A stretch of DNA of 64,000 nt from positions 32,001-96,000 of IMG/VR virus record IMGVR_UViG_3300025168_000039; one strand, written 5' to 3'. The notes below the pieces were generated by a model. The model was given only the letters and a program-made list of their open reading frames with translations. It did no database searches and was not told the origin of the DNA. The DNA is from a virus. Below, in pieces: positions 1,306 to 56,748 of this stretch. The position numbers and the translations under genes were made by a program. The number at the start of each line of letters is the position of its first letter. The first letter of the stretch is position 1.

Positions 1306-1356
1306 ATGAAAAAAATAATTCATGTAAACATGCATGTCATTCGTAAAAATAAAAAG
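1306..1356 (+). pseudogene. N-terminal half of a small outer-phage gene split by the insertion (MKKIIHVNMHVIRKNKK)
   Basis: GGAG RBS then ATG at 1306; joins in frame to GERNPTITVKTY... at 56572 when 1357-56571 is removed. Confidence 0.8.
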
Positions 1357-1847
1357 AAAAGAGATGCGAAATGCAGGGAGCATTATTGTGTTTCCTTCTT
1401 TTATGTGGCATCAAATAACTCCAGTTAAGTACGGCGACAGATATTCTATTGTCTGTTGGTACAAAGGACCACAATTTATGTGAGGGATTATGTTACAGTC
1501 ATTAAAAAATATTACTAAGGATATTAAATTAAAAGAAAAAGAGTTAAGTGGACGACCTGTTGGGATATTCTTATCATCAGCAAAGAGTTCGGAGCTATTT
1601 AACGAACTAAATAAAATAGATGAGCGGTTAGAACAGGACTTAATCTATTATAGAAAAACAATTATAGATATATTAGATGATGTTAATTCTATTAAGTTTT
1701 TAAATTTAAATCAGGAACGGTCCTTAAATAAAGTAGCAACACAATTAAATGTTTTGTTTGACGAAATAACTGCATCGCAGGATTCATAAAATGGATGACT
1801 TAGATATTTTAAAAAGAAATGTACTTGAGTTGAATACACAATTATTT
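1357..1847 (+). repeat. Left copy of 491-bp direct repeat
   Basis: Matches 56081-56571 except A1727 vs C56451. Confidence 0.97.
1490..1789 (+). CDS. Hypothetical protein (inside repeat; duplicate at 56214-56513)
   Basis: 99-aa ORF with GAGGG RBS. Confidence 0.7.
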   Translation: MLQSLKNITKDIKLKEKELSGRPVGIFLSSAKSSELFNELNKIDERLEQDLIYYRKTIIDILDDVNSIKFLNLNQERSLNKVATQLNVLFDEITASQDS

Positions 1848-1976
1848 AATGCTAATATTAGAATTAAAGAGTTAGTAGAAGAGAATAATTATTGTAGATT
1901 AAAATTAGAAGTTACAGAAGATAGTTTAGAAAAACTATCACAACAAGCCTTGGGCTACCGACAAAAATTTAAATGA
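1791..1976 (+). CDS. Small coiled-coil hypothetical protein
   Basis: Heptad-like Leu pattern; tightly packed in the operon. Confidence 0.65.
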   Translation: MDDLDILKRNVLELNTQLFNANIRIKELVEENNYCRLKLEVTEDSLEKLSQQALGYRQKFK

Positions 1977-1983
1977 GATAGAC

Positions 1984-2166
1984 ATGTCTAAAAATTTATG
2001 GGAATCAGACTACAAAAATATTTTTAAGAAACTTACAAGAGAGTATCAACGAGAAGGATATTCTTTAAGAGAGGCTAGAAGCTTATCTAAAAGAGAAGCA
2101 GACGAATTGATGGCTGATAGAAAATATTTTGTTGATAACTTATTAGATAATGCAGAGGACCAATGA
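1984..2166 (+). CDS. Hypothetical protein
   Basis: 60-aa ORF overlapping the thyX start (ATGA). Confidence 0.65.
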   Translation: MSKNLWESDYKNIFKKLTREYQREGYSLREARSLSKREADELMADRKYFVDNLLDNAEDQ

Positions 2167-2861
2167 GTGTATCTTTAATATCTTATACAAACCCTGCAAA
2201 ATTAGAATTAAATTCTGAGTATTTACCCGCTCATTTAAATTTTCAAAAACTTATAACATTCTGTGCTAGGGTTTCTAACCCTAACAATCAAGATAACTCT
2301 GAGACTGGTGAAAAATTATTAAGTTATTTAATAAAACATCAACACTGGTCACCGTTTGAGATGGTTAATGTTTGTCTTGAGATAGAGACAACAAGAGATA
2401 TCGCACGACAAATACTACGGCATAGATCTTTTTCTTTTCAAGAGTTTAGTCAAAGATATGCTGATCCCGTAAAAGAATTAAACTTTGTAACAAGAGAAGC
2501 AAGGCTTCAAGACCGTACCAATAGGCAAAACTCTGTTGAGGTAGATGATGACCTGCTTAGAATAGAATGGGAATGGGCGCAGAAAAGAGTTCTCTGGGCT
2601 GTGAAAAAAGAGTATGAATGGGCTATTAAAAAAGGTATAGCCAAAGAACAGGCGAGAGCTATCCTGCCGGAAGGCTTAACGATGTCTCGTATGTATATGA
2701 ATGGAACCTTACGATCATGGATACATTACATTCAACTACGCACAGATAAGGCTACTCAAAAAGAACATAGAGAAATAGCGCTTGAATGTTTACAAAAATT
2801 GAGTATAATATTTCCATTGATTAAAACACTAGGAGATAGAGATGAAGCGAAGAACATATAA
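2163..2861 (+). CDS. thyX: Flavin-dependent thymidylate synthase
   Basis: HWSPFEM and RHRSFSFQEFSQRY ThyX motif, AKEQARAILP. Confidence 0.96.
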   Translation: MSVSLISYTNPAKLELNSEYLPAHLNFQKLITFCARVSNPNNQDNSETGEKLLSYLIKHQHWSPFEMVNVCLEIETTRDIARQILRHRSFSFQEFSQRYADPVKELNFVTREARLQDRTNRQNSVEVDDDLLRIEWEWAQKRVLWAVKKEYEWAIKKGIAKEQARAILPEGLTMSRMYMNGTLRSWIHYIQLRTDKATQKEHREIALECLQKLSIIFPLIKTLGDRDEAKNI

Positions 2862-3000
2862 AATATGTTTTGATGGTAAAAAAACAAACATCTCCTTTGA
2901 AAATAGAAAGGAGGCAGAGGCTTTTATCAACGACAGAAAATCACTTCTTGTTGCTTTAAAGGCTGGGCCTAACAGTTATGCAATTGTAAGTACCAGATAA
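2842..3000 (+). CDS. 52-aa hypothetical protein (not in ORF track)
   Basis: AGGAG RBS; MKRRTYKICFDGKK...VSTR. Confidence 0.55.
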   Translation: MKRRTYKICFDGKKTNISFENRKEAEAFINDRKSLLVALKAGPNSYAIVSTR

Positions 3001-3019
3001 GATTTTAAAATTCCAGAAC

Positions 3020-3069
3020 TAATTAAAAAACCTACAGTAAGTTCTTACGAACTGTAGGTTATTTAATTA
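3020..3069 (+). promoter_or_regulatory. Bulged hairpin element (family copy 1) just upstream of the primase RBS
   Basis: TAATTAAA-A-AACCTACA-[GTAA]-GTTC-TTAC-GAAC-TGTAGGTT-A-TTTAATTA. Confidence 0.8.
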
Positions 3070-3082
3070 TAAGGAGAAATAC

Positions 3083-4744
3083 ATGAAGAAAGATGCTAAG
3101 TTTGTAAAGCATGTTAATTGTGATGAGTGCGGATCGTCAGACGGTAATGCCTTGTATGATGATGGTAGTGCTTTTTGCTTTGTTTGTAAAACATATTCAA
3201 AGGATTCTAGTATGCAAGATCAGGAACAAGTTAAACCCTCTAATACTAACCTTAAAGTTTACTCTAAAAACATGACTGAAGATAAAAACTATCAAGATAT
3301 TCCAGACCGCAAACTCACTGCCGCCACTTGTAAAGCCTACGGCATTTCTGTTGTTAAGGATGAAAGTGGAAATATTATTAAACATGTGTATCCTTATTAT
3401 AATACTGATGGTTCTCATGTAGCCAATAAGTTTCGAGTTGTCGCAAACAAAACCTTTCCTACTGAAGGTAACATCGCTAACGCATCTTTGTTCGGACAGA
3501 AAAACTTTCCTGCTAGAGGTAAATACGTTACGATTACCGAGGGAGAGTTGGACGCTGCATCAACATACCAAATGTTTGGTAGTCAGTGGCCTTGTGTTTC
3601 TGTAAGGTCTTCCACTACAGCGCTATCTGATTGTCAAAAGAATATGGATTATCTTAATTCATTTGATACTGTTGTTTTATGTTTTGATAAAGACAAAGCT
3701 GGAAGGGAGGCAGCGAACAAGGTTGCAGCTTTATTCGAGCCTAATAAATGTAGAATTGTAAAGCTTACAACATTTAAAGATGCTTCAGATTATTTGAAGG
3801 CTGGTTGCCGAGAAGAATTTACTAAAGCTTGGTGGAACGCTGAACCCTACACACCCGCTGGCATTATTAATTTAGGTCAGCTAGGAGACTCTCTCTATGA
3901 AGAAGATTTCTGTGAGAGTGTTGCCTATCCTTGGCCTTCTTTAAATGAAAAGACTTTTGGCTGTAGAACTGGAGAGCTTGTGACCTGGACTTCGGGTTCT
4001 GGTATGGGTAAGAGTTCTGTGTTAAGGGAACTTATGCATTATTTTCTACATCATACTAAAGATAATATAGGTATCCTTGCGCTTGAGGAGAACACTAAGA
4101 AGACGGCCTTCAACTTGATGGCAGTGGAAGCTAACCAAAGATTATATATTAAAGAAATTAGAGATCAATTTACCAGAGAACAGATGACTCGTTGGGAGGA
4201 GAAGACTATTGGGACAGGGAGATTTTTCGCTTTTGACCATTTTGGTTCTATATCTAACGATGAGATACTGTCTAGAATCCGGTATATGGCAAAAGCTTTA
4301 GACTGTAAATGGATATTCTTAGATCACTTGTCTATCCTTGTGTCTGGTCAAGAAGATGGGGATGAGAGGAGAGGTATAGATGTTCTGATGACTAAGCTAA
4401 GAAGCTTGGTTGAGGAGACAGGTATATCTTTAAACCTTGTGTCTCACCTACGTCGAGCAAACTCTTCAAAGTCCCACGAAGAAGGTGGAGAGGTTAGCCT
4501 TGCCCATCTTAGGGGTAGCCATAGCATAGCTCAATTATCAGACATGGTATACGCCTTGGAAAGAAATCAACAAGAGACAGATGAGACTCTTGCTAATACA
4601 ACACTTGTTAGGGTTCTTAAAAATAGATATAGTGGTGAGGTAGGTCCATCAACATATCTTTTCTATGATAAAGAGACAGGACGTTTAACCGAGATATCCA
4701 ATCCATTCGAAGTTAGAGAAGAAGAAGAAGGAGAAGCATTTTGA
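3083..4744 (+). CDS. T7 gp4-like DNA primase-helicase
   Basis: N-terminal Zn ribbon CDECGSSD...CFVC, TEGELDA, Walker A SGSGMGKS, LDHL, LRGS, KNRY. Confidence 0.96.
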   Translation: MKKDAKFVKHVNCDECGSSDGNALYDDGSAFCFVCKTYSKDSSMQDQEQVKPSNTNLKVYSKNMTEDKNYQDIPDRKLTAATCKAYGISVVKDESGNIIKHVYPYYNTDGSHVANKFRVVANKTFPTEGNIANASLFGQKNFPARGKYVTITEGELDAASTYQMFGSQWPCVSVRSSTTALSDCQKNMDYLNSFDTVVLCFDKDKAGREAANKVAALFEPNKCRIVKLTTFKDASDYLKAGCREEFTKAWWNAEPYTPAGIINLGQLGDSLYEEDFCESVAYPWPSLNEKTFGCRTGELVTWTSGSGMGKSSVLRELMHYFLHHTKDNIGILALEENTKKTAFNLMAVEANQRLYIKEIRDQFTREQMTRWEEKTIGTGRFFAFDHFGSISNDEILSRIRYMAKALDCKWIFLDHLSILVSGQEDGDERRGIDVLMTKLRSLVEETGISLNLVSHLRRANSSKSHEEGGEVSLAHLRGSHSIAQLSDMVYALERNQQETDETLANTTLVRVLKNRYSGEVGPSTYLFYDKETGRLTEISNPFEVREEEEGEAF

Positions 4745-5220
4745 CTTATCGAGTAAATAGGATTAGTCCCATAGCCAGTGTCAGAAAAAGGTTTAGTCAA
4801 GATTTATATAATGAAACTAATAATAAAGGTATCAAAAAGGGAGTAGCATATCTAAAGTCAGAAGGTCATAAGATTTTAGATAAGACAGAAACTTATGGGC
4901 CTGATATTGTTAGTGAGAAAGCTGGTAAGCTGTACTATACAGAAGTAGAAACAAAGCTTGTATGGTCTGGAGATTGGCCTGAGTCTTGGGAAGATGTACG
5001 TCTTCCTGAAAGAAAGAAGAGGTTGATTGCATTGGCAAAAAATAATGAGGCATCACTAAGCTTTATTATTTTTAATAAGGAATATAAACAAGCTTGGAAA
5101 ATTTCTTCTGATGTAGTAGACTCTTCTCCTTTAGAGGAGATATCAAACAAGTATGTTAGCAAGGGAGAATACTTCTTTGTCATTCCTTTAAAGAAAGCAA
5201 AGCTTTTAAAAATTAAATAA
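4741..5220 (+). CDS. Putative PD-(D/E)xK nuclease-like protein
   Basis: PD...EVETK arrangement; TTG start overlapping the primase stop. Confidence 0.5.
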   Translation: MTYRVNRISPIASVRKRFSQDLYNETNNKGIKKGVAYLKSEGHKILDKTETYGPDIVSEKAGKLYYTEVETKLVWSGDWPESWEDVRLPERKKRLIALAKNNEASLSFIIFNKEYKQAWKISSDVVDSSPLEEISNKYVSKGEYFFVIPLKKAKLLKIK

Positions 5221-5250
5221 GGATTTCACTTACGGAGGTTAGGTATAGTT

Positions 5251-6912
5251 ATGAGTGTAGTTCTTGACATAGAAACAGATGCTATTGATGCAACAAAAAT
5301 TCATTGTATTGTTGCTTATGATATTGAAAGTAAAAAGCCATATACCTTTGTAGGAGATGAGTGTTACATTAAGTTTCCTAATTTTGCTAAAAGTGTGTCG
5401 CAATTTGTGATGCATAATGGTATATCTTTTGATGCTCCTGTACTTAACAGGCTTACCGGAACTGACATTCAATATGATAGGATCATAGACACAATGATCT
5501 TATCACAACTTTATAATCCAATAATAGATAACGGTCATAGCTTAAAATCTTGGGGCGTTAGATTAGGAATCCATAAAGGTGAGGTTGAAAGCTTCAGTAA
5601 TTTCTCTGAAGATATGCTGGACTATTGTAAACAAGATGTTAATGTAACATACTCTTTATATAAATATTTTAAACAACAACAAAATATATTCTCTGCTAGA
5701 TCAATTCAACTTGAGCATAAGATAAAAAGTATTATTGATGAGCAGGAGCGTAATGGGTTTTATTTAGACTTACAAAAGTCTACTACGTTTGTGTCCTCTG
5801 TTGAAGATAAGATGGACACCATTGAGAATGAATTACAAAATATATTTCCACCCCATGTCATCTCTGGCAGAACACATAAAAGATCAGGCAAACCTCTTGC
5901 TGATATTGTAACTCCATTTAATCCTGCATCTCGAAAGCAAATAGCAGATAGATTACAAGGGCTTGGATGGAAGCCAGAAAAGAAAACAGACAAAGGAAAT
6001 ATAATTGTAGATGAGGCAGTCTTAGAGACAATTGATTTGCCAGAGGCAAAGAAAATATCTGAATACCTTTTGTTAGGTAAGAGATACTCTCAAGTTAAAT
6101 CTTGGATCGAAGCTTCTGATTCTTCAAGTAGAGTTCATGGGAGAGTTCTAACTCTCAGGACTGTTACAGGTAGGATGGCTCACACCTCTCCAAACATGGC
6201 TCAAGTTCCCGCTGTTTATTCTCCTATGGGGAAGGAGTGTCGAGGAATGTGGGGCGTATCTGATCCTGATAATTATTCCCTAATAGGTACAGACGCATCA
6301 GGTCTAGAGCTTAGAGGTCTAGCACATATGATGGATGATCCTATCTTTATTAAAGAAATATTAGAAGGTGATGTACATACAGCCAACCAGAAGATGGCCG
6401 GTCTTGATAATAGAGATCAGGCGAAAACATTTATCTATGCATTAATGTATGGAGCAGGTGCTGCAAAGATTGGTAAAATTGTAGGTGGCACCGCAAGAGA
6501 GGGAGAGGAATTAATATCTAAGTTTATGAAAAATATGCCTAAGTTTTCCTCTCTTAAAAATAATTTAAATCAAACTGTAGAAAAGAATGGAGTCATACCT
6601 GGACTAGATGGTAGAACCCTACAGGTTCGATCTCCTCATGCTGCTTTAAATACTTTAATACAGGGAGCTGGTGCTGTTATATGTAAGCAGTGGCTTGTTC
6701 AGATTAATGAGGCATACAAAAGAAAAGGACTAGATGTAAAACTTGTAGCTAGTATTCACGATGAGTACCAATTTGAGGTACACAATAAAGACTGTGAAGA
6801 GTTCGGTAAGATAACTAAAACTGCAATAAAGGAGGTAGAAGAAATATATTCGTTTAGATGTCCATTAGATTCCGAATATAAAGTTGGAAAAAACTGGGCT
6901 GATACACATTAA
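5251..6912 (+). CDS. polA: T7-like family A DNA polymerase (Tyr762 type)
   Basis: ExoI DIETD, HNGISFD, DASGLELR (motif A), AKTFIYALMYG (motif B), IHDEYQ (motif C). Confidence 0.96.
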   Translation: MSVVLDIETDAIDATKIHCIVAYDIESKKPYTFVGDECYIKFPNFAKSVSQFVMHNGISFDAPVLNRLTGTDIQYDRIIDTMILSQLYNPIIDNGHSLKSWGVRLGIHKGEVESFSNFSEDMLDYCKQDVNVTYSLYKYFKQQQNIFSARSIQLEHKIKSIIDEQERNGFYLDLQKSTTFVSSVEDKMDTIENELQNIFPPHVISGRTHKRSGKPLADIVTPFNPASRKQIADRLQGLGWKPEKKTDKGNIIVDEAVLETIDLPEAKKISEYLLLGKRYSQVKSWIEASDSSSRVHGRVLTLRTVTGRMAHTSPNMAQVPAVYSPMGKECRGMWGVSDPDNYSLIGTDASGLELRGLAHMMDDPIFIKEILEGDVHTANQKMAGLDNRDQAKTFIYALMYGAGAAKIGKIVGGTAREGEELISKFMKNMPKFSSLKNNLNQTVEKNGVIPGLDGRTLQVRSPHAALNTLIQGAGAVICKQWLVQINEAYKRKGLDVKLVASIHDEYQFEVHNKDCEEFGKITKTAIKEVEEIYSFRCPLDSEYKVGKNWADTH

Positions 6913-6916
6913 ATTG

Positions 6917-6945
6917 TTGACACATATTTTTATGTGGAGTAAAGT
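6917..6945 (+). promoter_or_regulatory. Sigma70-like promoter
   Basis: TTGACA-17 bp-TAAAGT. Confidence 0.65.
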
Positions 6946-6978
6946 GTGTAATCTTTTTAACTTAAAGGAGAAAATTCT

Positions 6979-7188
6979 ATGAAGGACTGTCAGAAAAAAA
7001 CCCTAACCGCTTTGAAGAAACGTATGCGAGTAACTCGTAAGACGGCTATTCAACATGGCTGGTGTGAGAACCTGACTGCTACTATCTCTGACCTACGAGA
7101 TCGAGGTCATAACATTGAGACTATCAAAGCTAAAACTGATGATGGCTCTCACTATACCCGCTATCGCCTCCTTCAGGCGGCAGCTTAA
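6979..7188 (+). CDS. Small winged-HTH DNA-binding protein
   Basis: NLTATISDLRDRGHNIET...RYRL pattern; AAGGAG RBS. Confidence 0.7.
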   Translation: MKDCQKKTLTALKKRMRVTRKTAIQHGWCENLTATISDLRDRGHNIETIKAKTDDGSHYTRYRLLQAAA

Positions 7189-7228
7189 ATTAAAATTATA
7201 TTAACGTACATTAAGGAGAAATTAAATT

Positions 7229-7735
7229 ATGGCTACCGAAAAAACAGAAGCACAAAGCGCTGACAATTATATGTATGCAACAGGTGTTGCGTATTGGACT
7301 TCTATTGTCGCACCTAATACTAAGTTCGAAGAAAGTGGTGTGTGGGAATGTACTCTTGCACAACTAGAGGGAGAAGCTAAAGCTATCTTTGAAGAGTCCG
7401 GTCTTGAGATTAAAAATGTCGGAGATGAAAAAGGAGACTTTGTTAAGTTAAAAAGAAAAGTGATGCGTAAGGATGGGGTTCTTAATCAAAGACCTTCAGT
7501 GGTCGATTCTCAAAATTCGCCTATGGATGATACCTACATAGGGAATGGATCACTGGTTACAGTTAAGTTCCGGCCTTATGATTGGGCGTGGGGTAATCGA
7601 AAGGGTCGAGGTGGTGATCTCTGTGCTATCCAAGTAGTTGATTTGGTTGAGTACAAACCACAGATTGATTCTTTTGATACCATTAAAGGAGGTTATGTTG
7701 CACCTGCCTCCGATGATGTACCGTTTCCTGCGTAA
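7229..7735 (+). CDS. ssDNA-binding protein (T7 gp2.5-like)
   Basis: IGNGSLV and IQVVDLVEY motifs, acidic/aromatic C-terminal tail; position in replication block. Confidence 0.85.
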   Translation: MATEKTEAQSADNYMYATGVAYWTSIVAPNTKFEESGVWECTLAQLEGEAKAIFEESGLEIKNVGDEKGDFVKLKRKVMRKDGVLNQRPSVVDSQNSPMDDTYIGNGSLVTVKFRPYDWAWGNRKGRGGDLCAIQVVDLVEYKPQIDSFDTIKGGYVAPASDDVPFPA

Positions 7736-7743
7736 CCAAAAGG

Positions 7744-7781
7744 AGTGGGAGGGGGAGAGTAAAATCTCCTTCTCCCTACTT
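7744..7781 (+). terminator. GC-rich hairpin after SSB (terminator or attenuator)
   Basis: GGGAGGGGGAGA-GTAAAA-TCTCCTTCTCCC followed by a short T run. Confidence 0.5.
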
Positions 7782-7786
7782 TCATT

Positions 7787-8647
7787 ATGAAAAAATTATC
7801 CTCGCTTATTAAAGATATCTATACTGTTTTACAAGATGGAAAAGGTTCACCCCGATCTGATCAAGACCTTCAAGAATTTGCAGAGGAAGCAGGTAAGAAT
7901 ATTGCAGGTCATCTCGTTAATGCAATTAAGGAAGATCGATCTAATCGAAAACCATATCTAAGAATTTCTAATATAGGTAAACCTTTACGACAACTCTGGT
8001 ATGATTTAAAAGACTCACCGAGAGTTGATGAGATGAAACCTCACGATCAAATCAGATTTTTATATGGTCATATTTTAGAAGATATAGTTTTATTTTTATG
8101 CTATGCTTCCGGCCATGAGGTAACTGAACAACAGAAAGAAGTTATTGTTGAGGGTGTTGTAGGACATAAAGATTGTCGTATTGATGGTGTTACCATTGAT
8201 GTAAAGAGTGCGTCACCGTATGGGTTTAAAAAGTTTAAAGAAAAAACTCTATATGATGACGATCCCTTTGGATATATAAGCCAGCTATCTGGTTATCTCA
8301 AAGGAGAGGGAGATACGAATGGTGGATTCCTTGCGATAGACAAATCGTCAGGAGAGTTAGCACTGCTTGAAGTGCATCCAATGGAGTTACATGATGTTAA
8401 AACAAAAATCGAAACTATCAAAAGTTATCTTAAAGAAGATAAGAAGCCTCCTAGATGCTATGATGATGTTCCTTATGGCAAGTCTGGCAATCGTCAGCTT
8501 TGTACCGCTTGCCGCTTTTGCGCTTTTAAATATTCTTGTTGGGAAGATTGTAATGCCGGTGTTGGGATTCGTAAATTTAATTATAATAACGGTATCGCCT
8601 ATCTTACAGAAGTTCAACTTGAGCCGAAAGTCGAGGAGTTGAAATGA
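7787..8647 (+). CDS. PD-(D/E)xK (Cas4/RecB-like) exonuclease
   Basis: GHKD...IDVKSAS, YISQLSGY, C-terminal CxxCxxxxxC. Confidence 0.85.
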   Translation: MKKLSSLIKDIYTVLQDGKGSPRSDQDLQEFAEEAGKNIAGHLVNAIKEDRSNRKPYLRISNIGKPLRQLWYDLKDSPRVDEMKPHDQIRFLYGHILEDIVLFLCYASGHEVTEQQKEVIVEGVVGHKDCRIDGVTIDVKSASPYGFKKFKEKTLYDDDPFGYISQLSGYLKGEGDTNGGFLAIDKSSGELALLEVHPMELHDVKTKIETIKSYLKEDKKPPRCYDDVPYGKSGNRQLCTACRFCAFKYSCWEDCNAGVGIRKFNYNNGIAYLTEVQLEPKVEELK

Positions 8648-9280: not shown

Positions 9281-9290
9281 GAGGTGCCAA

Positions 9291-9536: not shown

Positions 9537-9537
9537 C

Positions 9538-47906: not shown

Positions 47907-47935
47907 TCGGTTACACCTCTTGCTGTTAGAAAATA

Positions 47936-47964
47936 ATTATACCACTAAACTCTCCAGTATGCAA
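47936..47964 (-). promoter_or_regulatory. Sigma70-like promoter
   Basis: Minus strand TTGCAT-17 bp-TATAAT. Confidence 0.55.
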
Positions 47965-49510: not shown

Positions 49511-49655
49511 AGATACTCTTTAGTATCTCTATAGAGTCTCTATAGAGATAACATAAAACCTTTTAAAAATTATTATTAATAATAAACATTATAACAATTA
49601 TTAATAATAAACGATAATAATAACTAATAACTGTTTGTTCGAATCTCTAGAGATT

Positions 49656-49684
49656 ATTATACAGGAGTATATAGATTCTGTCAA
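49656..49684 (-). promoter_or_regulatory. Consensus sigma70 promoter driving the late operon
   Basis: Minus strand TTGACA-17 bp-TATAAT. Confidence 0.85.
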
Positions 49685-49910
49685 GGCTCCCGCCTAAAAT
49701 AATTAGGTTTAAATCATCATAATTTTATATAGATGAAATGACCCTCTTATTTTTGGTAAGTATATGGGGGGAGGGGTATATATATTATATAGCTGAGTCA
49801 ATTTTTTTGGTGGGGGGTCGTATATTAAATAATCTCTATAGATTATTTAAAGACATGTGACATATCTGCAACACCCCCATGCGAATATGTGACATATACA
49901 TCACATCCAG

Positions 49911-49950
49911 GAAGATTCTTACAGAATCTATGAAGATTCTTACAGAATCT
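49911..49950. repeat. Tandem 21-bp repeat, each unit palindromic
   Basis: GAAGATTCTTACAGAATCT twice. Confidence 0.85.
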
Positions 49951-50143
49951 TTGGAGATAAAAAGAAATATCACCTTGCAAGGTTTTATTTTTTATATTTA
50001 GAGAGATCAAAGTGATCTCTAAAGATAAAAAATAATATTAGATATCAACCGACTAACTACCAAACCCTGACTGTTGCAGTAATGCAACAACTGATGAGAT
50101 TCGAATAAACTTTGATGAAGTTCTTGACAGTCTATGATGAAAC

Positions 50144-50195
50144 TAATTAATAATCTATCTAGTGAGTTCTTACGAACTAGCTAGATGATTAATTA
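50144..50195 (+). promoter_or_regulatory. Bulged hairpin element copy 2
   Basis: TAATTAAT-A-ATCTA-T-CTA-[GTGA]-GTTC-TTAC-GAAC-TAG-C-TAGAT-G-ATTAATTA. Confidence 0.85.
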
Positions 50196-50216
50196 AAACT
50201 TAATTGGAGCAACCTG

Positions 50217-50384
50217 ATGACCAATATTCAATCCCTCAATTTCTATTTCTCCGAGCTAGACATGGAAGTATCTTCCTTCAATGGAGGTTATGACCTCCAC
50301 AATACAATTACCGGAGACCACATCACAACTTGTGATGATCTATGTGAAGCTGAGTATTTTCTATCTGCCATCCGTCAAAACTAA
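50217..50384 (+). CDS. 55-aa early protein (not in ORF track)
   Basis: GGAG RBS; MTNIQSLNFY...; stop TAA is the first triplet of the next hairpin. Confidence 0.6.
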   Translation: MTNIQSLNFYFSELDMEVSSFNGGYDLHNTITGDHITTCDDLCEAEYFLSAIRQN

Positions 50385-50433
50385 TTAATAATCTACTACT
50401 TAGCTTTCTTTGAAAGCAGTAGATGATTAATTA
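50382..50433 (+). promoter_or_regulatory. Bulged hairpin element copy 3
   Basis: TAATTAAT-A-ATCTACT-[ACTTA]-GCTTTC-TTT-GAAAGC-AGTAGAT-G-ATTAATTA. Confidence 0.85.
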
Positions 50434-50445
50434 AATAACTGGAAA

Positions 50446-50625
50446 ATGATTATGAAAATCCAAATGAATATGCGTTCTGACTATGGTCAGTACCGTTACT
50501 ATCCAGCTTGTGACAAATCAAAGCTCTTAACAGAGCTTACAAATCAAAAGACGTTAACACCTGCCAATATGAGAACTATACAGAAACTCGGCATCGAAGT
50601 TGAAATGCTAAGTCACAAACTGTAA
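50446..50625 (+). CDS. 59-aa early protein (not in ORF track)
   Basis: YG...YYP.C..SK.L......KTLT......IQKLG. Confidence 0.65.
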   Translation: MIMKIQMNMRSDYGQYRYYPACDKSKLLTELTNQKTLTPANMRTIQKLGIEVEMLSHKL

Positions 50626-50626
50626 G

Positions 50627-50683
50627 GGTAATTAAATATATTCTGGTAGACTATCTTAGGATACCAGAATATTATTAATTATC
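50627..50683 (+). promoter_or_regulatory. Bulged hairpin element copy 4
   Basis: GGTAATTAA-AT-ATATTCTGG-[TAGAC]-TATC-TTAG-GATA-CCAGAATAT-TA-TTAATTATC. Confidence 0.85.
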
Positions 50684-50716
50684 TTTTAACCAACCGCCAA
50701 CCGATAGGAGATTATC

Positions 50717-50935
50717 ATGGCAAAACGTACCGAGAAGATTACCCAAGCTTTCCGCAAAACCCGTTGGGTTAAGTTGAAAGAAGGCTATGAAGTTTATAAA
50801 CAAGCCGTCGAAGACGGCCTACCAATCCGAGTAGTTCACCCTTCCGGTTCTTTTAAAGTTATAAAGAACACCGAGAACCTTCCGAAGGAAGAAGGTCTTA
50901 GATTTAAAGCTGGGGAAGTCGAGGCGGTAGCCTAA
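50717..50935 (+). CDS. Early hypothetical protein
   Basis: AGGAG RBS; 72 aa. Confidence 0.7.
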   Translation: MAKRTEKITQAFRKTRWVKLKEGYEVYKQAVEDGLPIRVVHPSGSFKVIKNTENLPKEEGLRFKAGEVEAVA

Positions 50936-50940
50936 CCTCG

Positions 50941-50995
50941 GGTAATTAATAATCCCCTAGTAGACTATAAGGATACTAGGGGATGATTAATTATC
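50941..50995 (+). promoter_or_regulatory. Bulged hairpin element copy 5
   Basis: GGTAATTAAT-A-ATCCCCTAG-[TAGAC]-TAT-AAGG-ATA-CTAGGGGAT-G-ATTAATTATC. Confidence 0.85.
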
Positions 50996-51029
50996 TGAGA
51001 CATTAATAACTTGATTAATGGAGATTATT

Positions 51030-51185
51030 ATGACTATTCCAGATGATATGAACGTACCCTTAAATCGTAGAGATTTAAGTAAACCGGAGAATATTCGTTG
51101 GCTAGTTCGTAATCTAGCAGTCAAAAACAGGGAACATCCTAGCTTTAATAAAATAATCAAAGAGTTAATAAATAGGAGTAAATAA
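51030..51185 (+). CDS. 51-aa early protein (not in ORF track)
   Basis: GGAG RBS; MTIPDDMNVP.NRRD....NIRWL.RNL. Confidence 0.6.
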   Translation: MTIPDDMNVPLNRRDLSKPENIRWLVRNLAVKNREHPSFNKIIKELINRSK

Positions 51186-51503
51186 TATTATGACTTTCCC
51201 AATTGTGGTATCGACAATACTATTTATTGTATTCGTGGGAATAGCATATATACTATACAAAGATATTAAAAAACTTTAGGGTTACGCTAGGCATACACTC
51301 AATATCTGAATACTTTTTAAATGGAGTTTAAAAATGAGTTTAGAGAAAGATGCGGAAAAATATGTGAAGGCTTTAAATAGTCCCGCAAATGGTTGGGGAC
51401 AGTACATCATTAATGGTGAGCAGAGCCATGTATTCTTAGGTAAAATGTTTGAACAATATGGACAAGATGAAGTTAATAACTTTCTAGATAAGGATAATTA
51501 AGC

Positions 51504-52205
51504 ATGTCCACACTATCCCCAGACCATAATGCTATTGTTAATAGCACTACTTTGTACCAGAAAAATATACATGAAGTTGATAGTTATCCACATAAAGTTA
51601 TTAAAGCAAGCACCAATAAGAAGCTTGGCCGAAAAGTATTACGAGGTAAACTAAACGGCTATCCAATGTATACATTGACTTTAGTGGAAAGAGAGACTTG
51701 CACTAATGCTTGTGAGCATTGGGCTGATTGCTATGGGAACAATATGCCATTCGGTCATAGATTTAAAACTAAAGGACTAATGCCAAGGCTCAAGTTAGAG
51801 CTTGATGCTTTAGATAAAAAGCATCCCAATGGATACCTTGTTAGGCTGCACATTCTAGGGGACTTTTACAGTGTTCTATATGTAAAGTTTTGGGAAACCC
51901 AGCTACATAATAGACCGGCTTTAAATATCTATGGATATTCCCGTCATCACTATGGCTCTACTAATACCAGCAAACCATCAAGAAATATTGGACAAGCTTT
52001 GCTTGATCTGAGGGATAACATAGGCTTTGAAAGATTTGCTGTACGATTTAGCTCTCTGCCTTCCGATACCTTATCGGCCAATACAGAACACAACTCGACA
52101 GCTAATGCTATTACTTGTCTAGTACAAGTAGATAAGAGTGATAGTTGTGGTGACTGTACACTGTGCTGGACTACTAAAAAACCTATTACTTTTCTTGATC
52201 ACTAA
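51504..52205 (+). CDS. Gp88-like Cys-rich (radical-SAM-related) protein
   Basis: CxxxCxxxxxCY, RLHILGDFYS, C-terminal CGDCTLCW. Confidence 0.7.
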   Translation: MSTLSPDHNAIVNSTTLYQKNIHEVDSYPHKVIKASTNKKLGRKVLRGKLNGYPMYTLTLVERETCTNACEHWADCYGNNMPFGHRFKTKGLMPRLKLELDALDKKHPNGYLVRLHILGDFYSVLYVKFWETQLHNRPALNIYGYSRHHYGSTNTSKPSRNIGQALLDLRDNIGFERFAVRFSSLPSDTLSANTEHNSTANAITCLVQVDKSDSCGDCTLCWTTKKPITFLDH

Positions 52206-52564
52206 TGCTTTAATAAGGAAAAATTATGGTTAAATTAAATCCTGCTTATATTATTACTGTTGTTTCTTGTTAGGAATATAAAACTATGACAAAATATACC
52301 GAATTAGAACTGAGAGAAGTCATGTTCTACATGGATTTTAAAACAGTTTTAGAGGCTAGGGAATATATGGAAAACAATGACGCTGAATTATCCATTCAAA
52401 ACGAAACGGAATTTCGCCCCGGTAACATGTAACCACATACTTTTAAAGGGAATATAAAACTATGATAAATGTAATTATAAAAGCTACACTTTTAACTTTT
52501 CTTTTAGGAGCAGGTATATTATATTTCGATATGATCTTTAGCACTTCGAATACCCTGTTAACCA

Positions 52565-52616
52565 ATATTAATTATTCTAAGTAGAGTTATCTTACGATAC
52601 TTAGAATGATTAATAT
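52565..52616 (+). promoter_or_regulatory. Bulged hairpin element copy 6
   Basis: ATATTAAT-T-ATTCTAAG-[TAGAGT]-TATC-TTAC-GATA-CTTAGAAT-G-ATTAATAT. Confidence 0.8.
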
Positions 52617-52647
52617 AAAGTATCTCAACCACATTGGAGTGAATACA

Positions 52648-52845
52648 ATGTCTTTAACTACCATAATGCAACATGATGTTAAGTCTATTAATACAACGCA
52701 AAGAAATCATCAGGATTTTACAACAGTCTCTGTCCGTTTTGTAACGGAGGAAGGTGACGGCGGAGAAATTACTTTCTTTATAGATAATAAAGAAAATTTA
52801 GATAATATAGACCTAGCTCCTTCCGAGATTATAGTAGTAGACTAA
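52648..52845 (+). CDS. Early hypothetical protein
   Basis: GGAG RBS before ATG 52648. Confidence 0.6.
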   Translation: MSLTTIMQHDVKSINTTQRNHQDFTTVSVRFVTEEGDGGEITFFIDNKENLDNIDLAPSEIIVVD

Positions 52846-53027
52846 TGTCTATTTCAGTCTACGACTTTGTATTAATTAGAAAAGATGTCAGACAAAAACA
52901 AGGTCGCTGGACTATGGAAGATGACATCCGAATGGATATGCTAGAAGCTGGCTACAATCCGGCCAGCCGTCTAGACATAGAAGAATACTGGAAAGAAATA
53001 TTTGGAGAAGATGAAAATGAAATATAA
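52845..53027 (+). CDS. Hypothetical protein
   Basis: Translationally coupled 60-aa ORF. Confidence 0.6.
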   Translation: MSISVYDFVLIRKDVRQKQGRWTMEDDIRMDMLEAGYNPASRLDIEEYWKEIFGEDENEI

Positions 53028-53265
53028 AATATTAATTATACTATGCGCTGCTTTTCTTGGAGGATGTGCCGCTCCGCCTATAGTTCTATTATCGGCTGGT
53101 GCTACCGCTGGAGTAAAAGGGGTGGTAGACGATATCGAACAAGATGTTAAAATTAAAAAGTTACAAAACAGAGCAGAACACCTTGAGAAAGCTATGAAAT
53201 TTTACTTAACTACAATGGCATCAGAAAGAGATGAAAACCTATGTTATCTCTTAGATGCAGAATAA
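53017..53265 (+). CDS. Putative lipoprotein
   Basis: Signal peptide with lipobox LGGC. Confidence 0.6.
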   Translation: MKYKILIILCAAFLGGCAAPPIVLLSAGATAGVKGVVDDIEQDVKIKKLQNRAEHLEKAMKFYLTTMASERDENLCYLLDAE

Positions 53266-53288
53266 ATAACTTAAACTAGGAGACTAAA

Positions 53289-54251
53289 ATGTTTGATACC
53301 AATAGATTTTCTACATCATCTTTCGCCGCTTCACTTGCTCAAAAAGGGTATAATATGTTAGATCACCTCACCACCACTAATAATCGATCTATCTTTTTTA
53401 AAGTAAATGAGCAACAAGTTTCTGGACATTCTACAGGAACTGTAGCAGAGAAGTACAAGATGCTTTCCCGTGGCACCCCACCCTTGCAACCAGAAGAATG
53501 TTTATCGATAGTTAACAAAAACTATCGTGTGGTAGAAAATGAAGAGATTATTATGCCAATGCAAGAGCAGATGGTTAATCACTTTGATCCCTCTGTTTTA
53601 GCAGACATTCAAATAAAAGATCACATTGCTAAAAATGGTTCTGTATGCTTTGCGGAATACATTTTACCTAAAATGAAAGGTACTGTTGAAACAAAAACAG
53701 GACATAAAACAGAGGTTGGACTTAGATTTATTCTAAAAAATACCTTTGATGGATCGTCAAGTGTTGTGTTCTATGGTGGTGTTATTGACTTCTTCTGCAC
53801 CAATGGTATGATCAGTGGTGAATATGATGTAACAAAGAAACGTCATACTAAAAACTTTAGTGTCGATGGCTTCCTTAGTGCATTTGATAGTGCTATTGCC
53901 CGTCATGGTTGGATGGTTGATAAGTATCAGAAGTGGGCTGACCAAGGGATAAATAATACTATGAAAGTCCAAGAGTTATTTCGTACTCTAACGAGTGGTA
54001 GTACCGACGAACCTAAAAAGAAAAATACTTTATCTGATAGATTGTTTGCTCAATATATAGATGAGACACATGAACGAGGCAGCAATGTATTCTCTTTAGT
54101 ATCTGCTATGACCCACTATGGTAGTCATGGGGATGGTAGGTTTAACTTGCGTAAAAACTCTGGACCTGATACACTGTTTAAGCGTCAACAAAGTGTCAGT
54201 AAATGGATAAACTCTGAGGCTTTTGAAAACTTTCTTGAGGTAGCTGCATGA
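53289..54251 (+). CDS. DUF932-family protein
   Basis: Y.VVEN.E, LKNTFDGSSS, FCTNGMI, RHT motifs. Confidence 0.8.
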   Translation: MFDTNRFSTSSFAASLAQKGYNMLDHLTTTNNRSIFFKVNEQQVSGHSTGTVAEKYKMLSRGTPPLQPEECLSIVNKNYRVVENEEIIMPMQEQMVNHFDPSVLADIQIKDHIAKNGSVCFAEYILPKMKGTVETKTGHKTEVGLRFILKNTFDGSSSVVFYGGVIDFFCTNGMISGEYDVTKKRHTKNFSVDGFLSAFDSAIARHGWMVDKYQKWADQGINNTMKVQELFRTLTSGSTDEPKKKNTLSDRLFAQYIDETHERGSNVFSLVSAMTHYGSHGDGRFNLRKNSGPDTLFKRQQSVSKWINSEAFENFLEVAA

Positions 54252-54466
54252 AAAGAAAAACTAAAACGATTTTTCAATTAACATTTATAACTGTTGCTAT
54301 AATTTTAGCTGCAGTTGCATGTGGTAAAGAGGAGAGTGGGGTTATCCCACCTCCTTTACCTCCCTCTTTCTATAATAAACCTGATAAGGTTGTACCACCT
54401 GTACCACCTGTACCACCTGTAGTACCTGTAGAACGTACTGTATTTTGTTGTCAAATGGGTTTATGA
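54248..54466 (+). CDS. Putative Pro-rich lipoprotein
   Basis: VACG lipobox-like site; VPP repeats. Confidence 0.5.
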   Translation: MKRKTKTIFQLTFITVAIILAAVACGKEESGVIPPPLPPSFYNKPDKVVPPVPPVPPVVPVERTVFCCQMGL

Positions 54467-54720
54467 TTATGGATAAAGTAACTCCAACCCACACTAAAGA
54501 TTGGTATATCAAATGGTTAGCTAGTATTATACTGATCTTTGGTATGATTCTTAGTAGTAACAATATATATCCTGAGAATATTATTGCTCAAGCAACAGGA
54601 GCATTCGGCTGGCTAGTTGTCGGCCTACTATGGCACGATAGAGCAATAATAATTATTAATGCAATAGCATTTGCCATACTGTTTAGTGGTATAGTACAGT
54701 ATTACATGAGGAGTGGGTAA
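54463..54720 (+). CDS. Small 3-TM membrane protein
   Basis: WYIKWLAS...YP.NI...GW..VG..W.DRA. Confidence 0.65.
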   Translation: MIMDKVTPTHTKDWYIKWLASIILIFGMILSSNNIYPENIIAQATGAFGWLVVGLLWHDRAIIIINAIAFAILFSGIVQYYMRSG

Positions 54721-54939
54721 ATGGACGTTATAACACACACCCTACTAGCTGTTATGGCTATGGGAGCATGCTATTGGTGGGGGCGATACCTTTCCAAGAA
54801 TGAAATTTTTGAGGGCGTAGTTGGAACCATGTTGGATCGACTCGAAAAAGATGGGTTTATTCGCACTGCAGAGGGTGAAGACGGTGATATGGAACTGGTT
54901 CCTATCTCTGAAATAATTAAAGACGGTGACTCGGTTTAA
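54721..54939 (+). CDS. Hypothetical membrane-anchored protein
   Basis: N-terminal TM segment. Confidence 0.6.
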   Translation: MDVITHTLLAVMAMGACYWWGRYLSKNEIFEGVVGTMLDRLEKDGFIRTAEGEDGDMELVPISEIIKDGDSV

Positions 54940-55185
54940 ATGGCTCAATTTAAGGCGGTTTTGGTCGAATGGGTTGATATTGTGACTCGCTCGGCAGCAT
55001 GGGAAAGTCCTGCAAACTGCAAGACGGCGGCGATTACGTCTATTGGCTGGCTATGCTTCGAAAGCAAAACTCACATTGTCATAAGTCAAGGCTACGAGGC
55101 ATCAGACCCTGATGGGGATGTACTATCGCCAGTATCGATCCCAAGGGGCTGCATAACATCCATTAAGACATTAAAAATTAAATAG
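54940..55185 (+). CDS. Conserved phage hypothetical protein
   Basis: VEW.D...SIGWL...IPRGCI. Confidence 0.65.
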   Translation: MAQFKAVLVEWVDIVTRSAAWESPANCKTAAITSIGWLCFESKTHIVISQGYEASDPDGDVLSPVSIPRGCITSIKTLKIK

Positions 55186-55226
55186 CTTTATTGTATCCCT
55201 TGATAACAAATGAGAGGAAATGTAAA

Positions 55227-55418
55227 ATGACAATAAACAAATATAGTTTTACAAATCATTCAGAAATACCAGGACATATACAAATCTATCTTCTGGATGT
55301 TGCAAATGCGGTGAGTATTGAGGAACTTGTAATAGATGATATTAATGATTTTATGAATGGTCTAGATACTTGGGAAACAGAACAAATTTTTCAAGAAAGT
55401 TCAAAGCATATTCATTAG
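55227..55418 (+). CDS. Hypothetical protein
   Basis: GAGG RBS; likely start MTINK. Confidence 0.5.
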   Translation: MTINKYSFTNHSEIPGHIQIYLLDVANAVSIEELVIDDINDFMNGLDTWETEQIFQESSKHIH

Positions 55419-55441
55419 TTGTTATGAAAGAGAATTGTTAG

Positions 55442-55618
55442 ATGAGTAAGATAAAAAATTATATGATGGATATTCAAGAGTTCTGTGATGGATACTACTA
55501 TGATGGTATGAATGATTTTCCCATTGATGAGGTAGTTGAAGATGCTGGTATATATTTTAAGAGCAACGAAGCAAAAAAGTATGCCCGACAATATTTAACA
55601 ACACAGTTAGGAAAGTAA
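55442..55618 (+). CDS. 58-aa hypothetical protein (not in ORF track)
   Basis: MSKIKNYMMDIQEF... Confidence 0.55.
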   Translation: MSKIKNYMMDIQEFCDGYYYDGMNDFPIDEVVEDAGIYFKSNEAKKYARQYLTTQLGK

Positions 55619-55646
55619 ACCTTCTAGTGTATGGAATGAAAGTTAA

Positions 55647-56207
55647 ATGAAAACATACAAAGTCTATGATAGTGCTATAGAAAAAGAACATTGTAATAAT
55701 ATAATTAAGTTTATAAAAGATTTAGATTTAAATAACTCAAAAATAAACGAGGGTGAGGGTGATGTTGTTAACGAAGAAAAGCGGCAATCCCAAACTGCTT
55801 TTTTAAATTCAAAAGAATTTGTAGATATTTTTAGTTTGTATACTGGCTTTGCTAAAGAAGAATGTATGTGGAATTATAATATAACTAATTATGATACACC
55901 TCAAGTAAGTATATATTCTAAGAATGATAAGTACACTTGGCACCATGACATGCTTCCTGATAGTGATGGACTTGTACGCAAGTTGAGTGTATGTATAACC
56001 TTAAATGATAATTTTAAGGGAGGAGACTTTCAGATACAGAAATTTGTTTCTCCAGTTGAGAAGAAAAGATTTACTACAGTAAAAGAGATGCGAAATGCAG
56101 GGAGCATTATTGTGTTTCCTTCTTTTATGTGGCATCAAATAACTCCAGTTAAGTACGGCGACAGATATTCTATTGTCTGTTGGTACAAAGGACCACAATT
56201 TATGTGA
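55647..56207 (+). CDS. 2OG-Fe(II) oxygenase (prolyl-4-hydroxylase-like)
   Basis: Y.WHHD, RKLS, F.GGDF, VFPSF..H..TPV..G.RYSIV.W. Confidence 0.9.
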   Translation: MKTYKVYDSAIEKEHCNNIIKFIKDLDLNNSKINEGEGDVVNEEKRQSQTAFLNSKEFVDIFSLYTGFAKEECMWNYNITNYDTPQVSIYSKNDKYTWHHDMLPDSDGLVRKLSVCITLNDNFKGGDFQIQKFVSPVEKKRFTTVKEMRNAGSIIVFPSFMWHQITPVKYGDRYSIVCWYKGPQFM

Positions 56208-56571
56208 GGGATTATGTTACAGTCATTAAAAAATATTACTAAGGATATTAAATTAAAAGAAAAAGAGTTAAGTGGACGACCTGTTGGGATATTCTTATCA
56301 TCAGCAAAGAGTTCGGAGCTATTTAACGAACTAAATAAAATAGATGAGCGGTTAGAACAGGACTTAATCTATTATAGAAAAACAATTATAGATATATTAG
56401 ATGATGTTAATTCTATTAAGTTTTTAAATTTAAATCAGGAACGGTCCTTACATAAAGTAGCAACACAATTAAATGTTTTGTTTGACGAAATAACTGCATC
56501 GCAGGATTCATAAAATGGATGACTTAGATATTTTAAAAAGAAATGTACTTGAGTTGAATACACAATTATTT
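56081..56571 (+). repeat. Right copy of 491-bp direct repeat
   Basis: Matches 1357-1847 with one mismatch. Confidence 0.97.
56214..56513 (+). CDS. Duplicate of 1490-1789 (N>H change)
   Basis: Lies within the repeat. Confidence 0.7.
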   Translation: MLQSLKNITKDIKLKEKELSGRPVGIFLSSAKSSELFNELNKIDERLEQDLIYYRKTIIDILDDVNSIKFLNLNQERSLHKVATQLNVLFDEITASQDS

Positions 56572-56748
56572 GGTGAACGTAACCCAACGATTACAGTCAA
56601 GACATACAAGACTAACACCTACGCCCATGAAGTTGAGATACTCGGACCAAGCAAAGTTATTTACTCGCCAGATAAACCATTATCGTGTGGTGCTAGGTTG
56701 TGGATTGAAACACATAGCGAGGTTGTGGCTGACGGACAGTCAGTTTAA
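56572..56748 (+). pseudogene. C-terminal half of the split outer-phage gene (in-frame chimera with the inner ORF starting at 56515)
   Basis: GERNPTITVKTYKTNTYAHEVEILGPSKVIYSPDKPLSCGARLWIET. Confidence 0.8.

What the first reader, a model, noticed from the sequence alone, without database searches (positions are those of the whole stretch)
1306..56748. A whole 55-kb phage genome inserted inside a small gene of a related phage
Seen: 1357-56571 is bounded by a 491-bp direct repeat and holds a full gene set. Deleting it fuses MKKIIHVNMHVIRKNKK (1306-1356) in frame to GERNPTITVKTY... (56572-56748). The junction has a few bases of ambiguity, for example AAG-AAT-GGT would give KKNGERNP. Deletion also restores the outer gene order primase-helicase > small genes > polA. 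There is no target-site duplication, att core or recognisable integrase/transposase. Inference: Campbell-type integration through the repeat does not fit, because excising one 54,724-bp unit would still leave the outer gene broken by 491 bp. The insert therefore behaves as a linear, terminally redundant molecule joined by its ends. It is either a rare illegitimate recombinant between co-infecting relatives or, quite plausibly, an assembly or in-silico splice.
Basis: partly seen in the sequence, partly recalled or inferred. Interest (0 to 1): 0.8.

Follow-up and report, generated by a model that had tools for sequence, protein, structure and literature searches.

The report
Two phage genomes mis-joined through shared repeat
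The apparent 55-kb phage inside a gene of a related phage is most likely an assembly artefact: two separate marine phage genomes share a 491-bp segment and were threaded into one contig, and the real insertion in the small gene is only about 490 bp.

Summary
The repeat 1357-1847 = 56081-56571 is 491 bp with one mismatch. It brackets a complete phage gene set (Y) that is collinear with the outer phage (X). Removing the insert restores a small X gene.

The restored gene exists in public data as KNKKK|GERNP. The true boundary is therefore 1359/1360, with a 3-nt AAA overlap.

The record is a 106,894-bp IMG/VR contig, so it is not an in-silico splice. The interrupted state of the gene recurs independently:
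- Two IMG/VR contigs from other metagenomes carry the exact left junction, at 99.65% and 99.83% identity.
- Both junction ORFs occur in JGI, ENA and Logan assemblies.
- A variant of the right-junction ORF lies on a 53,276-bp contig.

Logan contigs are non-branching k=31 paths. A complete left-junction ORF there requires X-plus-repeat without Y.

Every k-mer of the record up to 371 nt is explained by two genomes: X' (A+R+C, about 52-53 kb) and circular Y (54,724 bp).

Best reading (about 0.8): a repeat-mediated chimeric contig, A-R-B-R-C. The biology underneath is ordinary mosaicism. A roughly 488-bp Y-derived cassette carrying one 99-aa gene sits in an optional small gene of X.

Another first-stage reader had already noted the chimeric ORF (e1-6000560).

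The parts
1..1287 (+). 3' part of the primase-helicase gene of outer phage X (segment A)
   Evidence: phrog_239 E 2e-149. 57% aa identical to the inner copy.
1306..1359 (+). First 18 codons of the small X gene (phrog_8676 family), cut off by the repeat
   Evidence: Identical to residues 1-18 of the intact 76-aa P0002. Empty-site alleles in L007, L008, L009 and L015. phrog_8676 E 1.3e-26.
1306..1428 (+). Left-junction ORF (40 aa, P0121): small-gene start read out of frame into the repeat
   Evidence: The exact protein is in JGI/IMG, Logan and ENA on contigs other than this record, the longest 8,386 bp. The junction DNA is exact in L002 and L004.
1357..1847 (+). Repeat R, copy 1 (allele A at offset 370). 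It continues into Y-specific sequence
1490..1789 (+). 99-aa gene wholly inside R (copy 1, Asn80 allele); no known family
1791..1976 (+). Intact 61-aa gene of Y spanning the R-end/B-start boundary
   Evidence: Exact protein P0126 on 6 contigs. Continuous in the Y-like contigs L001 and L003.
1848..56080 (.). Unique part (B) of inner phage Y: ThyX, primase-helicase, PolA, RNR, structural genes on the minus strand, portal, terminase, early genes
55647..56207 (+). 2OG-Fe(II) oxygenase gene of Y spanning the B-end/R-start boundary
   Evidence: PF13640 E 4e-14 and phrog_61. Exact protein on 7 contigs.
56081..56571 (+). Repeat R, copy 2 (allele C at offset 370). It continues into X
   Evidence: The same C allele sits next to segment A in L002.
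56515..56748 (+). Right-junction chimeric ORF (77 aa, P0003): first 19 codons of the Y 61-aa gene fused in frame to the last 58 codons of the X small gene
   Evidence: Exact protein on 9 contigs in JGI/IMG, Logan and ENA. Variant P0005 on a 53,276-bp ENA contig.
56572..56748 (+). Last 58 codons plus stop of the small X gene (start of segment C)
   Evidence: 100% identical to P0002 residues 19-76.
56889..58613 (+). PolA of outer phage X
   Evidence: phrog_17 E 3e-135. 80 IMG/VR relatives.

Best explanation
The 106.9-kb record is a chimeric contig, made by walking twice through a 491-bp segment (R) that two distinct, co-occurring phage genomes share.

The two genomes are:
- Y, a 54,724-bp circle or concatemer unit (R+B).
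- X', about 52-53 kb (A+R+C). This is phage X with a roughly 488-bp Y-derived cassette inserted in its small phrog_8676 gene between primase-helicase and polA.

The assembler entered R from A, left it into B, went once around Y, re-entered R and left into C. That is the path A-R-B-R-C, a loop or figure-eight traversal, or an overlap merge of contigs ending in R.

The real biological event is inferred to be small. Illegitimate recombination or template switching between co-infecting relatives, with a 3-nt AAA overlap at one junction, moved three things into X: the 3' end of the Y oxygenase gene, one complete 99-aa gene, and the first 19 codons of the next gene. This split the small gene and created an in-frame fusion (P0003).

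Shown: the repeat, the junctions, their recurrence elsewhere, and the k-mer equivalence. Inferred: A-R-C contiguity and the assembler's path.
For: 1. The left junction is exact in two IMG/VR contigs from other metagenomes. L002 is 5,492 bp at 99.65% identity. L004 is 8,050 bp at 99.83% identity. They differ from this record by 17 and 14 mismatches, so they are independent. L002 stops at the last base of R, as expected at a graph branch.

2. Both junction ORFs are exact in the JGI/IMG, Logan and ENA collections. P0003 is on 9 contigs. P0121 is on contigs up to 8,386 bp. A variant of the right-junction ORF, P0005, has 2 aa changes in the X part and lies on a 53,276-bp contig. The junction-bearing genome therefore propagates and diverges, which a 107-kb molecule could hardly do in a capsid built for about 53 kb.

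3. Logan contigs are non-branching k=31 paths in which every 31-mer is distinct (PMC12424806). A complete P0121 needs 72 nt of R. It can only be assembled where A->R has no competing B->R edge, that is, X' without Y. By contrast, the two Y genes that span R's boundaries (P0126, P0127) are absent from Logan, although Y's PolA and primase are present.

4. Every k-mer of the record up to k=371 is contained in X' (52,170 bp as assembled) plus circular Y. Only spans longer than 371 nt can tell the two layouts apart.

5. X and Y are only about 45-70% aa identical overall, yet R is 99.8% identical. R is native to Y, because the Y-like contigs L001 and L003 carry it in the same context.

6. By comparison with G002, a full X' would be about 53.0 kb, close to the 53,276-bp contig.

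7. [quoted passage not shown]

8. The insertion site is naturally polymorphic among 95-98% identical relatives: no small gene, intact small gene, or small gene plus R.
Against: No retrievable contig shows A-R-C in one piece.

No reads or coverage are available. The assembler and read type of the record are unknown; a long-read assembly would make a 491-bp repeat error less likely.

The two R copies differ at one base, which a simple collapsed-repeat walk would not produce. It is explained only if k exceeded about 121, so that the SNP was phased with the flank.

The 99-aa allele found in Logan is the Asn form, not the His form that this model assigns to X'. The SNP may therefore be polymorphic rather than diagnostic.
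Confidence: 0.8

Rival explanations
1. A real cointegrate or mixed concatemer. X' and Y both exist as separate phages. In co-infected cells they recombine homologously within the shared 491-bp R, giving physical A-R-B-R-C molecules that were sequenced.
For: 491 bp of 99.8% identity is ample for phage recombination. The layout is exactly that of a single crossover within R. All four R boundaries are parental.
Against: Such molecules would be transient replication intermediates, too long to package. They would be a minority beside the parental forms. A contig cannot be evidence for them, because it holds no k-mer of 371 nt or less that the parents lack.
Confidence: 0.08
2. A mature linear Y genome with 491-bp direct terminal repeats was joined by its ends into a double-strand break in the small gene of X. 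The 107-kb composite is the real molecule.
For: The insert is exactly one unit plus one repeat. X loses and gains nothing. The overlap is 3 nt at one junction and none at the other. One Tara gene record of a Y relative places primase-helicase at 1729-3390, against 1727-3388 from the start of R here. That contig therefore begins within about 2 nt of R's start.
Against: The junctions recur in other metagenomes with sequence divergence, yet a 107-kb genome could not be propagated by a phage of about 53 kb. A complete left-junction ORF in Logan is incompatible with a molecule that always also carries B->R. Both R boundaries lie inside coding sequence, and Y-like contigs read straight through them. 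The Tara coincidence is equally expected from a graph branch at R.
Confidence: 0.05
3. An in-silico splice or database concatenation of two records.
For: The insertion is clean to the base.
Against: The same junctions occur in other IMG/VR contigs and in ENA and Logan assemblies.
Confidence: 0.01

Closest known systems
[quoted passage not shown] 2017, PMC5610896, and works cited there)
   Same: Two related genomes from one community are joined at a shared near-identical segment. The contig is longer than any genome of the group. No junction sequence is absent from the parents.
   Different: Here the join is a full loop through one genome, so a complete genome appears inserted in a gene of the other. 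That mimics an integration event with terminal repeats.
Phage mosaicism by illegitimate recombination / moron-type gene gain (Hendrix model; from general knowledge)
   Same: A short foreign cassette with one complete gene is inserted at a non-homologous site. Boundaries fall inside genes and the microhomology is minimal (3 nt). An empty-site allele still circulates.
   Different: The cassette splits a small gene and makes an in-frame fusion. No function is known for either gene.
Campbell-type cointegrate or prophage flanked by direct repeats
   Same: One unit is flanked by direct repeats. Excision through the repeat leaves one copy behind.
   Different: There is no integrase, resolvase or DDE transposase in the record. 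The 'att' would be 491 bp of coding sequence. The 'host' is another lytic-type phage genome.
T7-like linear genomes with short direct terminal repeats
   Same: Both phages have a T7-like replication module (primase-helicase, PolA). The repeat length is in the range of known short DTRs (general knowledge).
   Different: Both repeat boundaries are inside genes. Physical ends were not and cannot be determined here. Relatives' contigs cross the region without a break.
Cultured pelagiphages HTVC115P/103P/104P and HTVC023P/027P
   Same: These are the best cultured matches. Primase-helicase is 46-48% aa identical to HTVC115P/103P/104P. Large terminase is about 39% identical to HTVC023P/027P. Genome size is similar at 54-61 kb, and the environment is marine.
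   Different: Identity is low. There is no nucleotide-level match in GenBank phages. The host is unknown.

Membership tests
Repeat-mediated chimeric assembly of two genomes | The extra unit is bounded on both sides by the same sequence, which both genomes share | tested here: met
   491-bp repeat with 1 mismatch at both junctions.
Repeat-mediated chimeric assembly of two genomes | The contig holds no sequence word absent from the two separate genomes | tested here: met
   All k-mers up to k=371 are found in A+R+C plus circular R+B.
Repeat-mediated chimeric assembly of two genomes | Each parental genome exists on its own, with X' showing A-R-C in one piece | tested here: inconclusive
   A-R is seen in L002 and L004. 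R-C is seen as ORFs P0003 and P0005 on 9+1 contigs. A complete P0121 in Logan implies X' without Y. No single A-R-C contig could be fetched. Y's own context is seen in L001 and L003.
Repeat-mediated chimeric assembly of two genomes | Unequal coverage of the two parts, and read pairs or long reads supporting A-R-C and B-R-B | not testable with these tools
   No reads or coverage are available.
Integrated prophage (site-specific recombination) | Integrase or recombinase gene | tested here: not met
   PF00589, PF00239 and PF00665 have no match in the whole record, while the controls were positive.
Transposable (Mu-like) phage insertion | Short target-site duplication and a DDE transposase | tested here: not met
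   No duplication of X sequence at the junctions. No rve match.
Linear genome with direct terminal repeats (R as the physical ends of Y) | The repeat coincides with the physical termini of virion DNA | not testable with these tools
   This needs read-start mapping. Indirectly against it: the boundaries are inside genes, and Y-like contigs L001, L003 and L094-L096 run through them.
HTVC103P-type pelagiphage group | Close relatedness of both the replication and the structural/packaging modules to HTVC103P/104P/115P | tested here: not met
   Primase-helicase is 46-48% identical. The best terminase match is HTVC023P at 39%. The relationship is distant only.

The most novel reading that the evidence does not exclude
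R is the genuine terminal repeat and packaging region of Y. A whole linear Y genome was once end-joined into X, and recombination between the two terminal repeats then removed Y. This left a 'solo terminal repeat' scar in X', analogous to a solo LTR. X' may even now use R as its own genome ends. The record would then capture, or mimic, the intermediate state.
Probability: 0.05. Interest if true: 0.6.

Novelty: not a real feature. Interest (0 to 1): 0.15.

Why it matters
The main value is as a caution. The IMG/VR record is rated 100% complete and 'linear', but it most likely holds two genomes. Its apparent phage-in-phage integration with terminal repeats is what a loop traversal through a shared segment looks like. 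Records like this inflate genome-size estimates and can seed false claims of novel integration mechanisms.

The real biology underneath is a recent roughly 490-bp gene-cassette exchange between two abundant, only distantly related marine podovirus-like phages, at a naturally polymorphic site between primase-helicase and polA. It is a clean but ordinary example of mosaicism, with the empty-site allele still circulating.

Tried and rejected
The 53,276-bp, 22,136-bp and 8,386-bp contigs that would settle A-R-C could not be read.
- Right-junction DNA patterns, exact and codon-degenerate, gave 0 hits in viral contigs, metagenome contigs and genome contigs.
- A guessed exact intact-site pattern gave 0 hits in viral contigs. 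The intact site was later found through polA-anchored loci.
- A pattern over the R SNP found only L002. A left-junction pattern found only L002 and L004.
- A homology search with the 40-aa left-junction ORF returned only itself. Whether the 53,276-bp contig holds both junctions could therefore not be tested.
- SNP phasing argument: L002 links segment A with the C allele, and the record links the C allele with segment C. I kept this only as weak support, because the 99-aa allele present in Logan is the other one.
- GenBank phages hold no nucleotide relatives.
- A 100,092-bp IMG/VR contig with an X-like polA (L060/G001) was checked as a possible second 'double genome'. It has only one terminase match.
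- The record's own ends were tested for circular closure. They are not seamless. Compared with G002, about 0.9 kb of a large minus-strand gene is missing.
- Earlier scan notes by place and by sequence gave no relative windows of use.
Full report
**What is in the sequence**

The window is bases 32001-96000 of a single-contig virus record of 106,894 bp. IMG/VR classes the record as linear, and CheckV rates it 100% complete.

The stretches 1357-1847 and 56081-56571 are identical over 491 nt except for one base: offset 370, position 1727 A against 56451 C. Similarity ends abruptly on both sides.

I label the pieces as follows:
- A is the record up to window 1356.
- R is the repeat.
- B is 1848-56080.
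- C is 56572 onward.

R+B is 54,724 bp and carries a full phage gene set: ThyX, primase-helicase, PolA, RNR, portal, large terminase and a long minus-strand structural block. A+C is 51,679 bp. It is collinear with R+B gene for gene, but only about 25-75% identical in protein and 65-72% in most alignable DNA. These are two distinct, fairly distant relatives. I call the outer one X and the inner one Y.

**The interrupted gene**

The first 17 codons at 1306-1356 and the 58 codons at 56572-56745 are the two halves of a small protein of family phrog_8676. It has more than 2,400 relatives in marine data.

The intact form with identical halves exists in public collections. P0002 is 76 aa and reads ...RKNKKKGERNP. 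IMG/VR relatives at 95-97% nucleotide identity read ...AAG AAA GGT GAA... across the site (L007, L008, L009, L015).

The outer sequence therefore runs to 1359. The AAA at 1357-1359 is a 3-nt overlap with the first bases of R, and the foreign DNA is 1360-56571. There is no overlap at the right junction and no duplication of X sequence. The record has no tyrosine or serine recombinase and no rve-type transposase.

**The junctions are not unique to this record**

This is the turning point.
- The ORF across the right junction (56515-56748, 77 aa, P0003) is on 9 contigs from JGI/IMG, Logan and ENA.
- The ORF across the left junction (1306-1428, 40 aa, P0121) is also in JGI/IMG, Logan and ENA. Its contigs are other than this record, the longest being 8,386 bp.
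- Two IMG/VR contigs from other metagenomes carry the exact left junction. L002 (3300001589, 5,492 bp) is 99.65% identical to the record. L004 (3300001718, 8,050 bp) is 99.83% identical. With 17 and 14 mismatches, they are independent assemblies of slightly different populations.
- A variant of the right-junction ORF, P0005, has two substitutions in the X-derived part. It lies on a 53,276-bp ENA contig.

An in-silico splice is therefore excluded. Whatever carries these junctions is a lineage that propagates and diverges.

**What carries them**

A 107-kb molecule cannot be the propagating form of a phage whose relatives are 52-57 kb (contig lengths). The simple alternative is X' = A-R-C: phage X with only about 488 bp of Y-type sequence in its small gene.

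In that case the record contains nothing that X' and Y do not contain separately. I checked this directly. Every k-mer of the record up to k=371 is present in A+R+C (52,170 bp) or in circular R+B. Only words longer than 371 nt, reaching from a junction to the single SNP, are specific to the composite.

An assembler meets A->R->C with a cycle R->B->R attached. It can produce A-R-B-R-C by traversing the loop once, or by overlap-merging contigs that end in R. How assemblers behave here is my own general knowledge. [quoted passage not shown] L002 ends at exactly the last base of R, which is what a branch at that point gives.

**An argument from Logan**

Logan contigs are non-branching paths of a k=31 de Bruijn graph, and every 31-mer occurs only once per accession (PMC12424806). 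In any sample holding the composite, or holding X' and Y together, R has two entries and two exits, and contigs must break within 30 nt of its boundaries.

The complete P0121 ORF needs 72 nt of R. Its presence in Logan means there is a run in which A->R has no competing B->R edge, that is, X' without Y. Conversely, the two Y genes that span R's boundaries are not in Logan as exact proteins, although Y's PolA and primase-helicase are. These two genes are the oxygenase P0127 and the 61-aa P0126. This pattern fits two separate genomes and does not fit a molecule that always carries all four boundaries.

The argument rests on the source labels returned by the look-up and on the published description of Logan.

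**Origin of R**

R is native to Y. The Y-like contigs L001 and L003, and the more distant L094-L096, carry oxygenase, the 99-aa gene, the 61-aa gene, ThyX and primase in the same order. They read straight through both R boundaries.

X has no counterpart of the 99-aa or 61-aa genes in its early region, and its oxygenase-like sequence lies elsewhere. R holds the last 127 nt of the oxygenase gene, the whole 99-aa gene with its ribosome-binding site, and the first 57 nt of the 61-aa gene. In X' that last piece provides the start codon for an in-frame fusion to the last 58 residues of the small protein.

I infer a single illegitimate recombination or template switch between co-infecting phages. This is the ordinary way phage mosaics arise, and it is inference, not shown.

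The site itself is plastic. Among relatives 97-98% identical in the flanks, many have no small gene at all between primase-helicase and polA (L005, L006, L010-L012, L070, L071, L073). Others have it intact.

**What is not shown**

I could not fetch any contig with A, R and C in one piece.
- The right junction is absent from the three scannable collections.
- A search with the left-junction ORF found no variants.

The predicted length of a full X' is about 53.0 kb: 51,679 + 491, plus about 0.9 kb that the record lacks in a large minus-strand gene compared with the 54,081-bp relative G002. This is close to the 53,276-bp contig. However, a composite broken at its repeats would give a similar piece, so the length is only consistent, not decisive.

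The single mismatch between the R copies needs the assembler to have phased it with the right flank, 120 nt away. L002 links segment A with the same C allele that the record links with C. The only 99-aa allele seen in Logan is the other one, so I give this little weight. The read type of the record is unknown.

**Rivals**

- A real cointegrate made by homologous recombination in R between X' and Y is possible inside co-infected cells. It would be a transient, unpackageable minority, and a contig cannot show it (about 0.08).
One coincidence also fits it: a Tara gene record of a Y relative starts its primase-helicase at 1729, against 1727 counted from R's start here. But a graph branch at R explains that equally. 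The Logan evidence, the recurrence with divergence, and the coding position of both R boundaries speak against it (about 0.05).

**Identity of the phages**

GenBank phages hold no nucleotide relatives. The best cultured matches are:
- Pelagibacter phages HTVC115P/103P/104P for primase-helicase, at 46-48% identity.
- HTVC023P/027P for the large terminase, at about 39% identity.

The HTVC103P-type group is described as combining a T7-like replication module with HMO-2011-like structural genes, and as very abundant in ocean viromes (bioRxiv 10.1101/2019.12.14.876532). X and Y are uncultured marine relatives at a distance, and the host is unknown. High abundance and strain diversity are the conditions in which such assembly errors arise.

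**Verdict**

The 55-kb insertion is most likely not a real feature but a repeat-mediated chimeric contig (confidence about 0.8). The real feature is a roughly 490-bp cassette exchange, which is ordinary. Another first-stage note (e1-6000560) had already flagged the chimeric ORF at 56515; I confirm that ORF and explain it. Interest is low.

Noticed in passing
window 1288-1356 + 56572-56888; loci L005, L006, L010-L012, L070, L071, L073 versus L007-L009, L015: The small phrog_8676 gene between primase-helicase and polA is itself optional. Relatives 97-98% identical in the flanks lack it entirely, while others 95-97% identical have it intact.
   Followed up: partly
window 36245-37088 (minus strand) versus G000 11947-12740: This is a second patch of unusually high X-Y similarity: 89% nt over 793 bp. 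The 103-aa protein is 98% identical and the neighbouring one 88%, against a background of 45-70%. It is probably another recent exchange between the two lineages.
   Followed up: no
G000 ends (record bases 1 and 106894; outside the window): The record's ends cut a large minus-strand gene and do not join seamlessly. The 54,081-bp relative G002 bridges them with about 4.46 kb, where the record has about 3.6 kb. Roughly 0.9 kb of X is therefore missing, despite the '100% complete' rating.
   Followed up: partly
L002:5220-5250: The IMG/VR contig L002 has N characters and small indels inside R, just where the Y-like contigs L001 and L003 have a 21-nt deletion. This looks like a consensus over more than one R variant in that sample.
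   Followed up: no
L001:2084-2550, L003:761-1227: Between Y and its close relatives, R (mainly the 99-aa gene) is only 84-85% identical, while the flanks are 91-97% identical. The 99-aa gene evolves fast or is itself exchanged.
   Followed up: no
It may be a different kind of chimera or a larger relative.
   Followed up: partly
G000 98011-98121 (outside the window): There is a weak third match to the first 111 nt of R (68% identity). It is X's own oxygenase-like sequence, downstream of polA. This shows that the oxygenase sits at different places in X and Y.
   Followed up: no
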